A DNA stretch of 64,000 bases from Candidatus Bathyarchaeota archaeon (GTDB taxonomy: Archaea > Thermoproteota > Bathyarchaeia > 40CM-2-53-6): contig CAWHWX010000016.1 in assembly GCA_963833125.1 (NCBI GenBank), forward strand, positions 288,001-352,000, given 5' to 3'. The notes beneath the pieces were generated by a model, which was not told the origin of the DNA, ran no database searches, and saw only the letters and a list, made by a program, of their open reading frames with translations. Both the position numbers and the translations under genes were made by a program. Shown one piece after another: positions 36,612-41,036 of the stretch; position 1 is the stretch's first letter; every line of letters begins with the position of its first letter.

Positions 36612-38042
36612 TTGCCCAGCCTCGCGTCGGTGTGCCGTAAGGTAAAGCCGGAGATAATTCCGAATTCAGAATTACGAGCCGCCGTTCAGGAGAAAGCTGA
36701 GGAAATTAGAGCCGCCGTAGAGCGTGAATGCACGAGAGCAGGGCTTTCAGCAGAAGTGCGACTTAACGGCTCGGTGGCGAAGGATACTTGGATTCGGGAT
36801 TATGCTGATGTCGACGTATTCATGAGAGTATCGCCCAACCTCACGAAAACCCAACTCCGCGAGGTTTGCTTACCGCCTGCCAAACGCGCACTCTACCCTA
36901 ACAAGATAGTTGAGAGGTTCGCGGAACACCCATACGTCGAATCCTTCGTAGAACTCAGTAAACGAAGAAAGCTTCGAGTCAACGTCGTCCCATGTTACAA
37001 CGTCCAATGGAGCCAATGGTTAAGCGCTACGGACAGAAGTCCTTACCACACCGAATACATCCGCCAACACCTCACCCTTCAGCAGCGTGATGAGGTGCGA
37101 TTGCTCAAGGCATTCATGAGGGGCATCGGCGCTTACGGTGCCGATACGAAGACCGGAGGTTTTAGCGGGATGCTATGTGAAACCCTCGTCGCATCTCGCG
37201 GCGAATTTGAGCGAGTGGTAGAGGATTTTACGGTTTGGCACGAGTCTCAGTATATCGACCTAGAACACTACTATCAAGACAGAGCAGATGAAGTGCATCG
37301 AATATTTCAGGACCCCCTGATTGTGATCGACCCCGTAGACAAAGGCAGAAACCTCGGCGCAGCGGTTCGTCGAGAGCAGTTGTGGAATTTTGTTGCCGCC
37401 TGCAGATCCCTCCTCGCAGAACCTTCAACAACATTCTTTCAGGAACCCAGAATCCGAGGACTGACCGCCGCCCAATATAGAAAGCAGGTGAAGATGCGTG
37501 GATCAACAATTCTCGCCATCGTAGTTGGAAGGATGGACATAGTCGTCGACATCCTTTGGAGTCAATTGTATAGAACTGAAAGGGCGCTAGTGAACCTGCT
37601 CCGGAGCAACGACTTCAGCATCATTAGATCCATATCCTGGAGCGATGAAAAATCCCTGAACGTGATTCTAATTGAATTGGAACAAGATGAACTTCCTTCC
37701 TCGAAGAGGCATCTTGGGCCCCCTGTTTCCAGGTCTACTGAAAGCGCCTCATTCCTAAAGAAACATCTGGGAAGCAAAGTTACGGTTTCAGGTCCGTGGC
37801 TGGAGGGAGGGAGATGGGTGGTTGAGAAGAGACGAGGGGTCCCTTCAGCAATTGGGCTTTTGAAAACGGCATTGAAATCGGGAGGCAGTGACATCGGCGT
37901 TGCTTCGGAACCCGCCCGTTGCTTTAGAAGGCGGGTTCAGGTTCTGAGGGATGAATCCTTGGGAGGCCTGATCTCAAGGAATCAAGAGTTTGCAAGAGCA
38001 ATGAATACGCTCCTCTCCGGGAGGCCTGCGTGGCTTGAATGA
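36612..38042 (+). CDS. cca: Archaeal class I CCA-adding enzyme
   Basis: GSVAKDTW....DVDVF, AEHPYV, SATDRSPYHT, EVRLLK.F..GIG.YG, GFSG.LCE, IDPVD..RN. Confidence 0.93.
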   Translation: MPSLASVCRKVKPEIIPNSELRAAVQEKAEEIRAAVERECTRAGLSAEVRLNGSVAKDTWIRDYADVDVFMRVSPNLTKTQLREVCLPPAKRALYPNKIVERFAEHPYVESFVELSKRRKLRVNVVPCYNVQWSQWLSATDRSPYHTEYIRQHLTLQQRDEVRLLKAFMRGIGAYGADTKTGGFSGMLCETLVASRGEFERVVEDFTVWHESQYIDLEHYYQDRADEVHRIFQDPLIVIDPVDKGRNLGAAVRREQLWNFVAACRSLLAEPSTTFFQEPRIRGLTAAQYRKQVKMRGSTILAIVVGRMDIVVDILWSQLYRTERALVNLLRSNDFSIIRSISWSDEKSLNVILIELEQDELPSSKRHLGPPVSRSTESASFLKKHLGSKVTVSGPWLEGGRWVVEKRRGVPSAIGLLKTALKSGGSDIGVASEPARCFRRRVQVLRDESLGGLISRNQEFARAMNTLLSGRPAWLE

Positions 38043-38797
38043 AATCCAGCCAGTTCGGCTCAAGGACATACCCGGTACTCGGTACGAGCGTATCCTCACC
38101 TATCCAGCCGCCGACCGAAGTCAGGCTGAAGCGAGAGTCAAGGAACTGGCATCCATAGGGGTTACTGCGATTCGCTTCATTGGCCACACAACGATAGGTG
38201 GGATTCCAATACTGGGCAAAGGTTGCGTGGGTATAGTCACTCAAGCGGTAATGGACGGCAAACCTGTGGCGGTTAAGATGAGGCGTTTGGACGCCGACCG
38301 CCCGTCAATGAATGAAGAGGCCAGGTTTCTGCGGTTAGCGAATGCGGTGAGGGTTGGGCCTCGACTTGTCGCGGCAACGAGGAATCTGTTGGCTATGGAA
38401 CTCTTCGATGGAGTTCCGTTATTCAGATGGGCGGAGGGGTCAGTGGGCAGAATCGGGGACCTGAAGCAAGTTCTTTCGGATCTGCTCAACGCTTGCTTCC
38501 GGCTTGACGTAGTCGGTTTGGATCACGGCGAGCTGAGCCATGCACCAAGGAACGTTCTAATCGGCCAGTGATAATGAGCCATGCATTGTGGATTTTGAAA
38601 GCGCAAGCATGGTTAGACGCGTGGCAAACGTAACGTCGCTGCTGCAATACTTTTTGTTCGGCAGTCTCTCCAAAACCCTACATAGCTCAAGGATTTTTCC
38701 GGCGAAGAGAAAAATCCTGAACGCTCTAACCGAATACAAACAGGAAGGGTCGATCGAAAGTTACGAGCATGTTCTTCAAGCCCTCAAACTCGTATGA
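38035..38797 (+). CDS. Atypical Ser/Thr kinase (RIO/Bud32-like), apparent frameshift near 38570
   Basis: LGKG..GIV, VAVK, GLDHGELS...RNVL, then DFESAS in the next frame. Confidence 0.8.
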
Positions 38798-38808
38798 AAG
38801 ATTATTAT
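38796..38808 (+). promoter_or_regulatory. Putative BRE/TATA promoter of tRNA-Pro
   Basis: GAAAGATTATTAT, about 30 nt upstream of tRNA position 1. Confidence 0.45.
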
Positions 38809-38835
38809 GAGCCCTGGAGCGTCTTTGCGGAGGGC

Positions 38836-39018
38836 GGGGCCGTCGTCTAGAAGAGAATCAAGGCGTTGCCTCTCTGGACAACTTGGTCTGGGAACACGAT
38901 TTCCGCCAACAGGATACCAGAGCGCAGATGCGCGCGGTGAACCTGGGGCGCTGGCGTCCCTAAGAAACAAAGGTCTCAGGGCCAGAGGTCGTGGGTTCAA
39001 ATCCCACCGGCCCCACCA
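38836..39018 (+). tRNA. tRNA-Pro(GGG) with four introns and encoded CCA
   Basis: Exons 38836-38850, 38882-38889, 38911-38920, 38942-38956 and 38988-39018 join to GGGGCCG TC GTCT AGCTTGGTCTA GGAT A CCAGC CTGGGGC GCTGG CGGTC GTGGG TTCAAAT CCCAC CGGCCCC A CCA, a complete 79-nt cloverleaf. Confidence 0.93.
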
Positions 39019-39484
39019 TACATCGAACCGACCCCACTACTCAGTGAAATAGCTACATTCGCTTTCTATCTTAAGAAAAATGGTTATCGGGAATCAACAA
39101 TCAGGGGATCCCGCCACAGTAGGAACCGACCCGGTTCGTAAATTGGCCGCGTCGAGCGTCCTGCGTTAGGAAGAACCGTTACTGAGAAGCAAGTGACTAG
39201 AGAGCAAGAACATTGAGGCATTGAACATTCTTATGCGGATTTTGTCTACCTTTTCCTATCAACCGTAGACTATCCGTTCCTCTTCAAGGGTGGGGTTGAA
39301 GAGGTATGTACATAAGAGTTAACGTTTGGCAGTTAGTAAATACGTTGAGAACGACGACAAAGCAAACGAAGCGCAAGAAAGAGAAGACACAACCGTTACT
39401 ACAGAACTTGGAGACCACCGACCACACGCGCGAACGAGGTCTTATTAACTTCAGAAATCCCGTCTGCCGTAGGGTACGTGTTCC

Positions 39485-39919
39485 TTGAAACGTGGAACGG
39501 CAGGGTTTGGTTTACTGGTAGTCCTGTTCACATTCCTGTTGGTTTTGGTTAATGTTGGACAAGTGTGGGCTGATACGACTAATCCAAACCCGCCCATGGC
39601 AGGTCAACCCTTCACAATAAGCGGAACAGCTACGACGGGAGGATTCGGCTCTCTGTATGCTGGGTCAGGCTGTTCTGTTGTCAATAGCATCACCAACGTG
39701 TTTGACCCGTCGCCTGGGTCGTTCACTGATTCGTTTCCTGGACAGCCAGCAGGTTCATACTCCTTCTCCCATGAAGGTGACGCATCTGGTTGTGTGAACT
39801 TCACAGTCAACTCTCCTCCTCCAATCCCAGAATATCCACTTGGATTACCAATCCTCGCAATCCTCCTGATAATCGGGTACGGTTTAGTTAGACGCCGAAC
39901 AAGAAACAATCCACGTTAA
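39485..39919 (+). CDS. Small secreted protein with PEF-CTERM-like anchor
   Basis: Signal peptide; ends PPIPEYPLGLPILAIL-TM-RRRTRN. Confidence 0.7.
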   Translation: MKRGTAGFGLLVVLFTFLLVLVNVGQVWADTTNPNPPMAGQPFTISGTATTGGFGSLYAGSGCSVVNSITNVFDPSPGSFTDSFPGQPAGSYSFSHEGDASGCVNFTVNSPPPIPEYPLGLPILAILLIIGYGLVRRRTRNNPR

Positions 39920-40030
39920 GGTCGTTGGGCCGTCGAGGCACAATCGTTCCAGTACATTCACGATAATGCTTCTCGACACGTTACGTTAAATAGATATGAC
40001 TTCCTCACATTGTTGTGGCTTGGGGAGCTT

Positions 40031-40525
40031 ATGGTTCAAAGGTTCATGATTGTTACGGTCCTTTCGATTCTAGTGTTCACGATTATCGGAGCTACCTTCC
40101 TCTCTCCAGTATACGCACCACCATGCACCCAGACTGCTTCCCTTTCTTCATCAACCATAACGCAGGGAACTTCCAGCGTAGGTGTTAGTGGAACAGATAC
40201 TTGCGACTCCTTTCCAGCAGGAGGAGCTTTTGTGGCAACTATTCTTTCGTCGGGCGCGTGTCCTGGTGGTGCAATTGCTTCTGGGCCTGTCGATACCTCC
40301 ACCGCTGCCGGTACTGGTGCTTTCTCCGCTACTATTCCTACTGATTTCCTCAGCCCAGGTGCATATTGCGTCCGTACGAGTTTTCTCTCTGGCGACCCTA
40401 TTTTCAATCCTCTCAGCATTACTTCCTCAGCTCCACCCATCCCTGAATACCCCTACGGGTTACCCTTGCTCGCAATTCTCACGATACTCTCCTACGCCGT
40501 GATTAGACGCAGAACTCGAAACTAA
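40031..40525 (+). CDS. Small secreted protein with PEF-CTERM-like anchor
   Basis: Signal peptide, four Cys; ends PPIPEYPYGLPLLAIL-TM-RRRTRN. Confidence 0.7.
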   Translation: MVQRFMIVTVLSILVFTIIGATFLSPVYAPPCTQTASLSSSTITQGTSSVGVSGTDTCDSFPAGGAFVATILSSGACPGGAIASGPVDTSTAAGTGAFSATIPTDFLSPGAYCVRTSFLSGDPIFNPLSITSSAPPIPEYPYGLPLLAILTILSYAVIRRRTRN

Positions 40526-40619
40526 ACTTCGATAGAGCCGTTCGCAGGCTGTTTGAAGCAGGGCGCAGCCAACCAAAAAATAATATCGTCCATATCGAAG
40601 CCCTCAAAATGACGGTGAT

Positions 40620-41036
40620 ATGAAAATGAAGATCAAACTTACCAGCGTATTTGTGACCGATCAAGACAAGGCTCTGAAATTTTACACTAATGTTTTAGGC
40701 TTTGTCAAGAAACTGGATTTTCCTGCCGGGAAATTCAAATGGCTGACAGTTGTCTCCCCGGAGGAGCCCGAGGGCACCCAGCTGCTTCTTGCGCCAACCG
40801 ACATTGGGGGCTTTCACGGGCCAGCAGCCAAGACATACCAAGGAGCTCTTTTCAAGCAAAGTATACCCGCAGCGAATTTCTTTGTTGAGGATATTCAGAA
40901 AGAATATGCGAGGCTGAAGGACCTGGGCGTGGTGTTTACCATGACACCATCAAAAACGACAGGGTCAATCATAGCTGTGCTTGACGATACATGTGGTAAC
41001 CTCATTCAACTAACTCAGCTCACTTGGTCAATGTAG
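40620..41036 (+). CDS. VOC/glyoxalase-family protein
   Basis: SVFVTDQDKALKFYT.VLGF, WLTV.SPE, F.VEDI...Y..L...GV.F, DDTCGNLIQL. Confidence 0.9.
   Translation: MKMKIKLTSVFVTDQDKALKFYTNVLGFVKKLDFPAGKFKWLTVVSPEEPEGTQLLLAPTDIGGFHGPAAKTYQGALFKQSIPAANFFVEDIQKEYARLKDLGVVFTMTPSKTTGSIIAVLDDTCGNLIQLTQLTWSM

What the first reader, a model, noticed from the sequence alone, without database searches (positions are those of the whole stretch)
38836..39018. tRNA-Pro(GGG) interrupted by four non-canonical introns
Seen in sequence: four inserts, each with a 4-bp central helix, a 3-nt bulge cut after its second base, and an intron-internal stem. Intron 1, 38851-38881 (31 nt, position 15/16): GTCT/GGAC helix, AG|A and AA|C, AGAGA/TCTCT stem. 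Intron 2, 38890-38910 (21 nt, 20b/21): TGGT/GCCA, CT|G and AC|A, GGAA/TTCC. Intron 3, 38921-38941 (21 nt, 30/31): TACC/GGTG, AG|A and AA|C, GCGC/GCGC. Intron 4, 38957-38987 (31 nt, 45/46): CTGG/CCAG, CG|T and AG|G, CCCT/AGGG. Removing them gives a 79-nt cloverleaf with a GGG anticodon and CCA. Internal exons are only 8, 10 and 15 nt, and none of the introns is at canonical 37/38. Established: archaeal EndA cuts BHB motifs, and Thermoproteales (Thermofilum pendens) have tRNAs with up to three introns. Inference: four exceeds the maximum I know of, and standard tRNA finders would probably miss or truncate this gene.
Basis: partly seen in the sequence, partly recalled or inferred. Interest (0 to 1): 0.92.

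Follow-up and report, generated by a model that had tools for sequence, protein, structure and literature searches.

The report
Four-intron proline tRNA gene, Bathyarchaeia
This is a real proline tRNA gene of a peat or soil archaeon (class Bathyarchaeia) that is cut into five pieces by four short introns; such extreme fragmentation has been reported before only in other archaeal groups.

Summary
Window 38836-39018 (+) holds five exons (15, 8, 10, 15, 31 nt) and four inserts (31, 21, 21, 31 nt). Each insert has a 4-bp central helix, two 3-nt bulges and a 4-5 bp intron-internal stem.

Joining the exons in a script gives a 79-nt tRNA-Pro(GGG) cloverleaf. This product is co-linear, without gaps, with compact 76-nt intronless tRNA-Pro(GGG) genes of six other Bathyarchaeia genomes.

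G000 and 17 of 22 other same-genus genomes carry the same four introns. Their exons are almost invariant, and the intron stems show compensatory changes.

The genome encodes a two-subunit, crenarchaeal-type splicing endonuclease and the ligase RtcB.

The novelty claim fails. An October 2026 preprint reports up to five intervening sequences per tRNA gene in Asgard archaea. Four inserts also occur in at least three other tRNA genes of this genome and in other Bathyarchaeia.

The lineage appears to be new. My library searches found no paper on heavily interrupted tRNA genes in Bathyarchaeia. Here about 49 archaeal tRNA loci average roughly 2.2 inserts each. No RNA data were available.

The parts
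38796..38811 (+). Promoter-like element. A purine-rich BRE-like GAAAG is followed by a TATA-like ATTATTAT (38801-38808), 28-35 nt upstream of the mature 5' end.
   Evidence: The motif ATGAAAG-TT-TTATGA is conserved at the same distance in all 18 same-genus loci, whereas the sequence between it and the gene varies. The promoter function is inferred from recalled knowledge of archaeal promoters.
38836..38850 (+). Exon 1 (15 nt): acceptor 5' strand, U8, D-stem 5' strand, A14, G15. Its last 6 nt form the H1 strand plus the first two bulge bases of intron 1.
   Evidence: Invariant in the 18 same-genus sequences.
38851..38881 (+). Intron 1 (31 nt, position 15/16), HBh' type.
   Evidence: Central helix 4/4, inner helix 5 bp. 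Absent, with exactly these boundaries, in family relatives G023, G024 and others, and in compact homologues.
38882..38889 (+). Exon 2 (8 nt): D-loop positions 16-20b, including G18 and G19.
38890..38910 (+). Intron 2 (21 nt, position 20b/21).
   Evidence: Central helix 4/4, inner helix 4 bp, outer helix 2 bp. Two inner pairs show A-U to G-C double changes in 2 of 20 sequences.
38911..38920 (+). Exon 3 (10 nt): A21, D-stem 3' strand, A26, anticodon-stem positions 27-30.
   Evidence: Invariant in 20 of 20 sequences.
38921..38941 (+). Intron 3 (21 nt, position 30/31).
   Evidence: Central helix 4/4, inner helix 4 bp. Two inner pairs have double changes.
38942..38956 (+). Exon 4 (15 nt): position 31, anticodon loop with GGG and G37, anticodon-stem 3' strand, positions 44-45.
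   Evidence: The 13-mer that includes the anticodon occurs once in this genome.
38957..38987 (+). Intron 4 (31 nt, position 45/46).
   Evidence: Central helix 4/4, inner helix 4+3 bp. Three inner pairs have double changes in 1, 5 and 7 of 20 sequences. The boundary is ambiguous by one G in a motif-free alignment.
38988..39018 (+). Exon 5 (31 nt): positions 46-48, T arm, acceptor 3' strand, A73 and the encoded CCA.
   Evidence: CCA is encoded in 19 of 20 aligned loci.
38807..39052 (+). Mechanical 81-aa ORF overlapping the tRNA gene; judged spurious.
   Evidence: Listed. Same-genus orthologous loci range from 176 to 184 nt, and these length differences lie in the intron loops and are not multiples of three.

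Best explanation
This is a functional tRNA-Pro(GGG) gene of a Bathyarchaeia archaeon, transcribed as a roughly 183-nt precursor in which four short introns interrupt the D loop (15/16, 20b/21), the anticodon stem (30/31) and the variable loop (45/46). In the precursor each intron forms its own self-contained hairpin of the relaxed bulge-helix-bulge class HBh'. The last six bases of the upstream exon supply one strand of the 4-bp central helix and two bulge bases. The 3' part of the intron supplies the other strand, and an intron-internal stem closes the motif. The four motifs do not overlap (precursor positions 10-47, 49-76, 80-107, 116-153), so all can exist at once beside the acceptor stem and T arm. 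Inferred steps: the genome's two-subunit (alpha-beta)2 splicing endonuclease cuts in each bulge; RtcB joins the exons; RNase P and 3' trimming finish the 79-nt tRNA, whose CCA is encoded. The internal exons of 8 and 10 nt have no exon-exon helix to hold them. I therefore infer that cleavage and ligation must be ordered or tightly coupled, otherwise these pieces would be lost.
For: Anatomy: the exon and intron coordinates and all four motifs were verified. The spliced product is a tRNA-Pro(ggg) cloverleaf by ARAGORN. It is the only solution of a strict BHB-plus-cloverleaf solver for this locus.

Motif-free junction test: the spliced product aligns end to end without gaps to intronless 76-nt tRNA-Pro(GGG) genes in 6 other Bathyarchaeia genomes at 67-70 of 76 identity (G171, G047, G157, G044, G056, G094). 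Positions 8-48 are identical in G171. Two of these compact genes score 57.8 and 59 bits with the Rfam tRNA model.

Conservation: the same four introns are present in G000 and in 17 of 22 other same-genus genomes. Across 20 aligned loci, 98.5% of 932 pair cells form a standard pair, against 32-48% when partners are slid. Seven pairs (21 cells) have changes on both sides, all in the intron-internal helices. None of 500 shuffles reached the observed value for four of the five measures.

Intron 1 is missing, at exactly the predicted boundaries, in other genera of the family. A conserved BRE/TATA-like motif lies 28-40 nt upstream.

Machinery: a 185-aa EndA alpha-like protein matches the A. pernix catalytic subunit 3P1Z_B at E = 7.8e-40, and K and K align with K44 and R46 of the Crenarchaea-specific loop. 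That loop confers broad specificity according to PMC3241643 (abstract and passages read). A second, 19%-identical 190-aa paralogue lacks the catalytic His in the pairwise alignment. RtcB scores 574 bits.

Only one GGG-anticodon arm occurs in this genome.
Against: There is no RNA evidence of transcription, splicing or circular introns; no RNA run could be listed. tRNAscan-SE and SPLITS were not available, and the spliced sequence could not be given to Infernal.

The outer helix h is absent, so these are relaxed motifs. The minimum-free-energy fold uses slipped registers in the same four hairpins, and the fold with the BHB pairs enforced is 5.1 kcal/mol less stable (-71.8 versus -76.9).

The outermost central-helix pair is unpaired in 3 of 20 sequences for intron 3 and in 2 of 20 for intron 2.

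The structure tested was derived from one of the aligned sequences, and the genomes are close kin, so the controls overstate the support.

Five of 22 same-genus genomes gave only short matches; they are 67-93% complete.

The ordered-splicing idea is inference only.
Confidence: 0.92

Rival explanations
1. The locus is a decaying or non-functional tRNA relic (pseudogene) whose inserts are not spliced.
For: There is no expression data. Standard finders give no hit. The motifs are of the relaxed HBh' kind, without the outer helix.
Against: The exons are almost invariant across 18 same-genus sequences, whereas the intron loops vary freely and the intron stems change in compensating pairs. The promoter-like motif is conserved. 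This is the only GGG-anticodon arm found in the genome. All other archaeal-type tRNA loci found in this genome are also interrupted, so they cannot all be relics.
Confidence: 0.03
2. The gene has a different exon-intron structure. One example is the two-intron parse (78 nt and 31 nt) that ARAGORN accepts as 'tRNA-Gln(ttg)'. Another is a version in which some inserts stay in the mature RNA as enlarged loops.
For: ARAGORN accepted 11 alternative spliced forms of this locus, including a 71-nt 'Gln(ttg)' with two introns.
Against: Those forms fail a strict cloverleaf test, for which only the four-intron Pro(GGG) form remains. They are not co-linear with the compact homologues, which match the four-intron product without gaps. 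Relatives lacking intron 1 join exon 1 to exon 2 exactly as predicted.
Confidence: 0.03
3. The region is protein-coding (ORF 38807-39052, 81 aa) or another structured RNA such as a tmRNA-like molecule.
For: The ORF exists mechanically. A permissive Rfam scan gives a tmRNA match spanning exactly 38836-39018 at 29 bits.
Against: The length differences among same-genus orthologues (176-184 nt) sit in the intron loops and are not multiples of three. The tmRNA score is below the gathering score of 47, and the match rests only on the acceptor stem and T arm, with 124 nt unaligned. It is recalled knowledge that archaea are not known to have tmRNA.
Confidence: 0.01

Closest known systems
[quoted passage not shown] Sources: Valentin-Alvarado et al. 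2024, PMC11291895 (passages read); bioRxiv 10.64898/2026.10.13.758758 (abstract, sections 1 and 2.1 and passages read).
   Same: Several short (about 20-30 nt) non-canonical introns per gene, many in the D arm. They sit at BHB-type boundaries and are missed by standard annotation. Nearly every tRNA gene is interrupted, at about 2.2 inserts per gene, with up to five in one gene.
   Different: A different phylum: this genome is Bathyarchaeia, which the preprint's main text does not mention (0 occurrences of 'Bathy'). The endonuclease here is the crenarchaeal two-subunit type. The maximum seen here is four.
Multi-intron tRNA genes of Thermoproteales, for example Pyrobaculum calidifontis tRNA-Glu(UUC) and P. 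islandicum tRNA-Pro(UGG) with three introns (PMC4390854, passages read; PMC8450103, passages read).
   Same: The same phylum-level group (Thermoproteota; recalled). BHB-type introns at non-canonical positions. An (alpha-beta)2 endonuclease with the Crenarchaea-specific loop. A proline tRNA is among the most interrupted genes.
   Different: The reported maximum there is three introns per gene and 1.54 per gene genome-wide. This gene has four, and its genome averages about 2.2. Thermoproteales are hyperthermophiles (recalled), whereas this genome's closest named relatives are peat or soil MAGs. tRNAscan-SE 2.0 describes introns so close together that one must be removed before the next motif forms. 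Here all four motifs can form at once.
Ectopic and multiple tRNA introns of the red alga Cyanidioschyzon merolae (PMC3728597; search listing and abstract only).
   Same: Several BHB-like introns at non-canonical positions in nuclear tRNA genes.
   Different: A eukaryote, with permuted genes as well. No relation by descent is implied.

Membership tests
Archaeal endonuclease-spliced (BHB-type) tRNA intron | A 4-bp central helix flanked by two 3-nt bulges on opposite strands, with the cut after the second bulge base | tested here: met
   4 of 4 central pairs and exact 3-nt bulges in all four introns. The cut position is inferred from the geometry, and it reproduces the junctions seen in intronless homologues.
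Archaeal endonuclease-spliced (BHB-type) tRNA intron | At least one flanking helix (exon-exon h or intron-internal h') of 2 bp or more | tested here: met
   h' is 5, 4, 4 and 4 bp. h is 0-2 bp, so the class is HBh' and not the full hBHBh'.
Archaeal endonuclease-spliced (BHB-type) tRNA intron | Removal restores a canonical tRNA | tested here: met
   ARAGORN calls tRNA-Pro(ggg). There is a unique strict-cloverleaf solution. The product aligns without gaps to six compact homologues.
Archaeal endonuclease-spliced (BHB-type) tRNA intron | The motif is kept by selection (pairs maintained through compensating changes) | tested here: met
   98.5% of cells paired, 7 pairs with double changes, 0 of 500 shuffles. 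Caveats: the sequences are close kin, and the structure was derived from one of the rows.
Archaeal endonuclease-spliced (BHB-type) tRNA intron | The host encodes a splicing endonuclease able to cut non-canonical sites, and an RNA ligase | tested here: met
   Two EndA paralogues, alpha-like and His-less beta-like. Positive residues align with K44 and R46 of the A. pernix loop. RtcB is present. Enzyme activity was not tested.
Archaeal endonuclease-spliced (BHB-type) tRNA intron | Cleavage and exon ligation observed in vivo or in vitro | not testable with these tools
   No RNA run could be listed.
tRNA-Pro(GGG) | A cloverleaf with 7/4/5/5-bp stems, U8, A14, G18-G19, U33 and a T loop of TTCAAAT | tested here: met
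   (score 38, the highest reached among all loci scored).
tRNA-Pro(GGG) | Anticodon GGG with G37 and discriminator A73, as in related proline tRNAs | tested here: met
   The sequence of the spliced product. The D arm and anticodon arm are identical to the compact Bathyarchaeia tRNA-Pro(GGG) genes. That these are identity elements is recalled, not tested.
tRNA-Pro(GGG) | Scores above threshold with a tRNA covariance model | tested here: inconclusive
   The unspliced locus gets no Rfam tRNA hit. The spliced sequence cannot be submitted to Infernal here. The compact orthologues score 57.8 and 59 bits.
tmRNA (Rfam RF00023) | A score at or above the gathering score, with a tag reading frame and pseudoknots | tested here: not met
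   29 bits against 47. Only the acceptor stem and T arm align.

The most novel reading that the evidence does not exclude
Soil and peat Bathyarchaeia of this family, and more weakly of its order, form a further lineage, independent of the Asgard families and apparently undescribed, whose whole tRNA gene set is fragmented. Every archaeal-type tRNA locus found in this genome has at least one insert. The mean is about 2.2 per gene, and several genes have four, which equals the most interrupted sets reported for Asgard archaea. The same four sites of tRNA-Pro(GGG) are occupied in different combinations in different families, while other families keep a compact gene. Internal exons of 8-10 nt with no exon-exon helix imply that cutting and joining must be ordered or coupled, a requirement that could be tested directly.
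Probability: 0.5. Interest if true: 0.62.

Novelty: new member of a known kind. Interest (0 to 1): 0.5.

Why it matters
The finding shows that extreme tRNA gene fragmentation is not confined to hyperthermophilic Thermoproteales and a few Asgard families. It also occurs in abundant, mesophilic soil and peat Bathyarchaeia.

There is a practical consequence. ARAGORN and the Rfam tRNA model find only a minority of the tRNA genes in these genomes: 19 Rfam hits in this genome against 38 and 42 in two compact-gene Bathyarchaeia. Public MAG annotations of this group probably under-report tRNAs and may call spurious ORFs over them.

There is also a biological use. tRNA-Pro(GGG) occurs within one class in forms with 0, 1, 2, 3 and 4 introns. 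This gives a natural series for asking how introns are gained and lost, and how an endonuclease and a ligase handle 8-nt exons.

Tried and rejected
Expression evidence: the look-up of sequencing runs (kind rna) listed no RNA holder for window 37000-41000. This is no evidence either way.

Intron mobility: short-word BLAST of the four introns with their flanks against the whole genome gave only chance 12-20-nt matches (best E = 0.16). This gives no sign of recent copying of these introns between genes.

Same-genome control: I meant to compare the spliced product with the intronless tRNA-Pro(CGG) on contig C28. That tRNA looks bacterial and is dissimilar. Its region was found in 0 of 15 same-genus genomes, although the composition of C28 is not an outlier. 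I treat C28 as probably foreign and dropped its loci from the census mean.

Census methods: ARAGORN as a filter for spliced candidates was too permissive and gave many contradictory solutions per locus, so I rejected it. A spliced alignment with a cheap insertion penalty over wide regions produced junk alignments with 8-12 'inserts', which I also rejected. The census I report uses bounded loci aligned to 41 compact tRNAs of genome G044, some of them mislabelled by ARAGORN. It is approximate. A separate BHB-plus-cloverleaf solver solved 29 of the 52 loci and agreed on the intron number in 25 of those 29. One candidate with a span over 200 nt was dropped before the count. Duplicated loci (C12/C17, C2/C3/C16, C6/C18/C29) are counted separately.

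Class-wide Rfam tRNA counts were capped at 32 scored candidates per genome, so they are only a rough proxy.

Among the class-wide tRNA-Pro loci, 6 of 34 alignments (L047, L054, L055, L061, L066, L067) were junk or truncated and are not counted.

Supplementary Data 4 of PMC11291895 and Tables S3/S4 of the preprint may list four- and five-intron genes. They were not seen.

Claims of 'not in print' rest on searches of the held library only.

Full report
WHAT IS THERE. A script cut the five proposed exons (15, 8, 10, 15, 31 nt) and the four inserts (31, 21, 21, 31 nt). ARAGORN calls the joined 79-nt product tRNA-Pro(ggg), with a 7-bp acceptor stem, 4-bp D stem, 5-bp anticodon and T stems, a TTCAAAT T loop, A73 and an encoded CCA. 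On the unspliced DNA, ARAGORN finds nothing in the whole window and nothing at the locus even in intron mode. Rfam gives no family above threshold. A permissive Rfam scan returns only a sub-threshold tmRNA match (29 bits against 47) that spans exactly 38836-39018. That match arises because the tmRNA model tolerates a large interior between an acceptor stem and a T arm.

THE FOUR MOTIFS. I tested each insert against the geometry of the bulge-helix-bulge motif. In that geometry the four exon bases ending two bases before the 5' cut pair with the four intron bases ending two bases before the 3' cut. Both cuts fall after the second base of a 3-nt bulge. All four inserts have 4 of 4 central pairs, the stated bulges and an intron-internal helix of 5, 4, 4 and 4 bp. 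The outer exon-exon helix is absent or at most 2 bp. They therefore belong to the relaxed HBh' class.

The four motifs occupy precursor positions 10-47, 49-76, 80-107 and 116-153, so they do not overlap. The minimum-free-energy fold of the precursor is the acceptor stem, the T arm and four hairpins at these places. It is more stable than all 200 dinucleotide-preserving shuffles (-76.9 versus -64.1 kcal/mol, z = -2.93). The fold with the exact BHB pairs enforced is 5.1 kcal/mol less stable, mainly because the AGAGA/TCTCT repeat of intron 1 can slip by one register.

IS IT MORE THAN CHANCE? I wrote a SPLITS-like solver. It enumerates BHB candidates, removes non-overlapping sets and tests the product against a strict cloverleaf. 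With the acceptor 5' strand and the 3' exon kept and the 145-nt interior shuffled, 1 of 300 shuffles gave any solution. None gave a solution with four or more introns in which every intron has a flanking helix of at least 4 bp. ARAGORN alone is too permissive as a judge. It accepted 11 alternative products of this locus, including a two-intron 'tRNA-Gln(ttg)'. Those products fail the strict test and the comparative test below.

WHOSE GENOME. The window lies on contig C16 of a 3.07-Mb, 39-contig assembly with 50% G+C, 87.8% completeness and 7% estimated contamination. A 936-aa protein of the window has its closest relatives (63-83% identity) in MAGs labelled Candidatus Bathyarchaeia or Bathyarchaeota; several isolate names suggest peat or soil surveys. 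The organism is therefore neither Thermoproteales nor Asgard.

COMPARATIVE TEST OF THE JUNCTIONS, WITHOUT USING THE MOTIF. The 13-nt anticodon-arm motif of exon 4 occurs in 36 of 151 sampled Bathyarchaeia genomes, and once in this genome. I fetched 31 such loci and, with three loci held earlier, aligned the script-joined product to 34 loci, allowing long insertions. Six alignments were junk or truncated and are set aside. The rest show the following.
- Six genomes from five families have a compact 76-nt gene that matches the spliced product end to end without a gap, at 67-70 of 76 identity. In G171 positions 8-48 are identical. The differences sit in the acceptor and T stems. Two of these compact genes score 57.8 and 59 bits with the Rfam tRNA model.
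- Four loci in three genomes have one insert, at 20b/21 or 15/16.
- Two loci have about two inserts.
- Twelve have three inserts.
- Four have four inserts: this genome; G127 and G172, where the extra intron lies at 7/8 with a 4/4 central helix; and G082 of another family, which has inserts at the same four sites as here.
No locus examined had five inserts. This independently fixes all four junctions. Only the intron 4 boundary is ambiguous, by one G.

CONSERVATION WITHIN THE GENUS. The whole locus is found at 83-96% identity in 17 of 22 other same-genus genomes. The other five, which are 67-93% complete, gave only short matches. In the alignment of these 18 sequences plus two from other genera of the family, the exons are almost invariant. 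The intron loops differ in sequence and length, so the locus ranges from 176 to 184 nt within the genus. The two other genera lack intron 1 and join exon 1 to exon 2 exactly as predicted.

I counted the acceptor, T-arm and BHB pairs across the 20 rows:
- 98.5% of 932 cells form a standard pair, against 32-48% when the partners are slid by 1-3 columns.
- Seven pairs (21 cells) have changes on both sides, all in the intron-internal helices of introns 2, 3 and 4.
- None of 500 shuffles reached the observed value for four of the five measures; the fifth measure was reached in 143 of 500.
Three caveats apply. The rows are close kin. The structure was derived from one of them. MAFFT misplaced exon 1 of the two outgroup rows, which the count treats as gaps. 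The outermost central pair is broken in 3 of 20 rows for intron 3 and in 2 of 20 for intron 2.

A GAAAG-ATTATTAT motif 28-40 nt upstream of the mature 5' end is conserved in all 18 same-genus loci, while its surroundings vary. I read it as a BRE/TATA promoter from general knowledge of archaeal promoters.

MACHINERY. The genome has two separate genes with both tRNA-intron-endonuclease domains.
- The first is a 185-aa protein that matches the catalytic alpha subunit of the Aeropyrum pernix heterotetramer (3P1Z_B) at E = 7.8e-40. It keeps the Tyr-His-Lys region, and K and K align with K44 and R46 of the Crenarchaea-specific loop. That loop and K44 were shown to confer cleavage at non-canonical sites (PMC3241643, abstract and passages).
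- The second is a 190-aa paralogue, 19% identical to the first, with a gap where the catalytic His lies. I read it as the structural beta subunit.
RtcB is present at 574 bits. The enzyme set therefore fits the crenarchaeal (alpha-beta)2 type that is known to cut relaxed motifs. Its activity is inferred.

HOW IT LIKELY WORKS. Shown by sequence and comparison: the anatomy, the junctions, selection on the hairpins and the presence of the enzymes. Inferred: transcription from the upstream promoter, cutting of the eight bulge sites by the endonuclease and ligation by RtcB.

In every intron the exon strand of the central helix is sequence that pairs elsewhere in the mature tRNA: the D-stem 5' strand, G18-G19, and anticodon-stem bases. 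The intron thus supplies a surrogate partner.

Exons 2 and 3 are 8 and 10 nt long, and no exon-exon helix holds them. If the introns on both sides were cut before ligation, these pieces would be freed. I therefore infer ordered or coupled cleavage and ligation. This is untested.

CONTEXT IN THIS GENOME. The Rfam tRNA model finds only 19 loci here, against 38 and 42 in two Bathyarchaeia genomes with compact genes. I used 41 compact tRNAs of G044 as templates and found 52 bounded tRNA-like loci. Counting inserts of at least 10 nt:
- 2 loci have none;
- 13 have one;
- 18 have two;
- 15 have three;
- 4 have four.

Both insert-free loci and one weak three-insert call lie on contig C28. That contig carries bacterial-looking tRNAs, and the region I tested from it was found in 0 of 15 same-genus genomes. 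Without C28, 49 loci carry 107 inserts, about 2.2 per locus, and none is uninterrupted.

The four-insert loci are this gene, a Gln(CTG) gene, and an initiator-like Met gene present twice. The BHB solver adds Leu(CAG) with four introns. These counts are approximate and include duplicated loci.

A capped class-wide Rfam count points the same way. Family f1 has 5-18 hits per genome, the rest of the order 7-26, and most other families 25-33.

COMPARISON WITH WHAT IS KNOWN. Reviews and the tRNAscan-SE 2.0 paper give three as the maximum number of introns per archaeal tRNA gene. They name Pyrobaculum calidifontis as the richest genome, with 71 introns in 46 genes (PMC4390854 and PMC8450103, passages). 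Valentin-Alvarado et al. 2024 found introns in 92-95% of the tRNA genes of three Asgard genomes (PMC11291895, passages). The October 2026 preprint 10.64898/2026.10.13.758758 reports 2.20 intervening sequences per gene and up to five in one gene in three Asgard families, many in the D arm and missed by tRNAscan-SE. Four introns are therefore not a record.

None of my five searches on this question returned a paper that links Bathyarchaeia with tRNA introns. The preprint's main text does not mention that class. Supplements were closed.

VERDICT. The mechanism is the known archaeal one, acting on relaxed motifs. The claim of a record is superseded. What remains of interest is that Bathyarchaeia join the short list of lineages with wholesale tRNA gene fragmentation, with a graded 0-to-4-intron series for one tRNA and very short internal exons. 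I file it as a new member of a known kind, with interest 0.5.

Noticed in passing
G000 contig C28: 34937-35013 (-), 57281-57357 (+), 110482-110559 (+) (outside the window): Three intronless tRNAs (Pro-CGG, Val-GAC, Arg-CCG). The Pro-CGG looks bacterial. They are the only uninterrupted tRNAs in the assembly. The Pro-CGG region was found in 0 of 15 same-genus genomes, yet the G+C and tetranucleotide profile of C28 are not outliers. C28 is probably a foreign or contaminant contig (the contamination estimate is 7%), but a mobile element is not excluded.
   Followed up: partly
G000 C34:81686-81846 (-); C12:31530-31675 (-) and C17:35138-35283 (+); C9:6775-6961 (-) (outside the window): Other tRNA genes with four inserts: Gln(CTG), an initiator-like Met(CAT) present in two copies, and Leu(CAG). 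Some of the inserts lie in the T loop and some are only 12-13 nt long.
   Followed up: partly
G000 contigs C12/C17, C2/C3/C16, C6/C18/C29 (outside the window): Near-identical tRNA loci occur two or three times on different contigs (Gln-TTG, an Ala-like gene, Met-CAT; Val-CAC three times; a Gly-like gene three times). This suggests either a strain mixture in the bin or real duplications.
   Followed up: no
L040 (G127) and L041 (G172), tRNA-Pro(GGG) loci: Two genomes of other genera in the same family also have four introns in tRNA-Pro(GGG). Their fourth intron is a 25-nt one between positions 7 and 8, at the junction of the acceptor stem and U8, with a 4/4 central helix and 5-7 bp flanking helices.
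   Followed up: partly
window 38836-39018: A permissive Rfam scan reports a sub-threshold tmRNA match (29 bits, gathering score 47) with exactly the ends of the tRNA gene. This is a side effect of a tRNA-like acceptor stem and T arm around a large interior.
   Followed up: yes
window 38807-39052 (+): An 81-aa ATG ORF runs across the tRNA gene. Automatic gene callers may annotate it as a hypothetical protein.
   Followed up: no
L099 (G000 C28:34400-35600), positions 395-467: A 73-nt stretch next to the bacterial-looking tRNA-Pro(CGG) recurs in inverted orientation at 93% identity within the same 1.2 kb.
   Followed up: no
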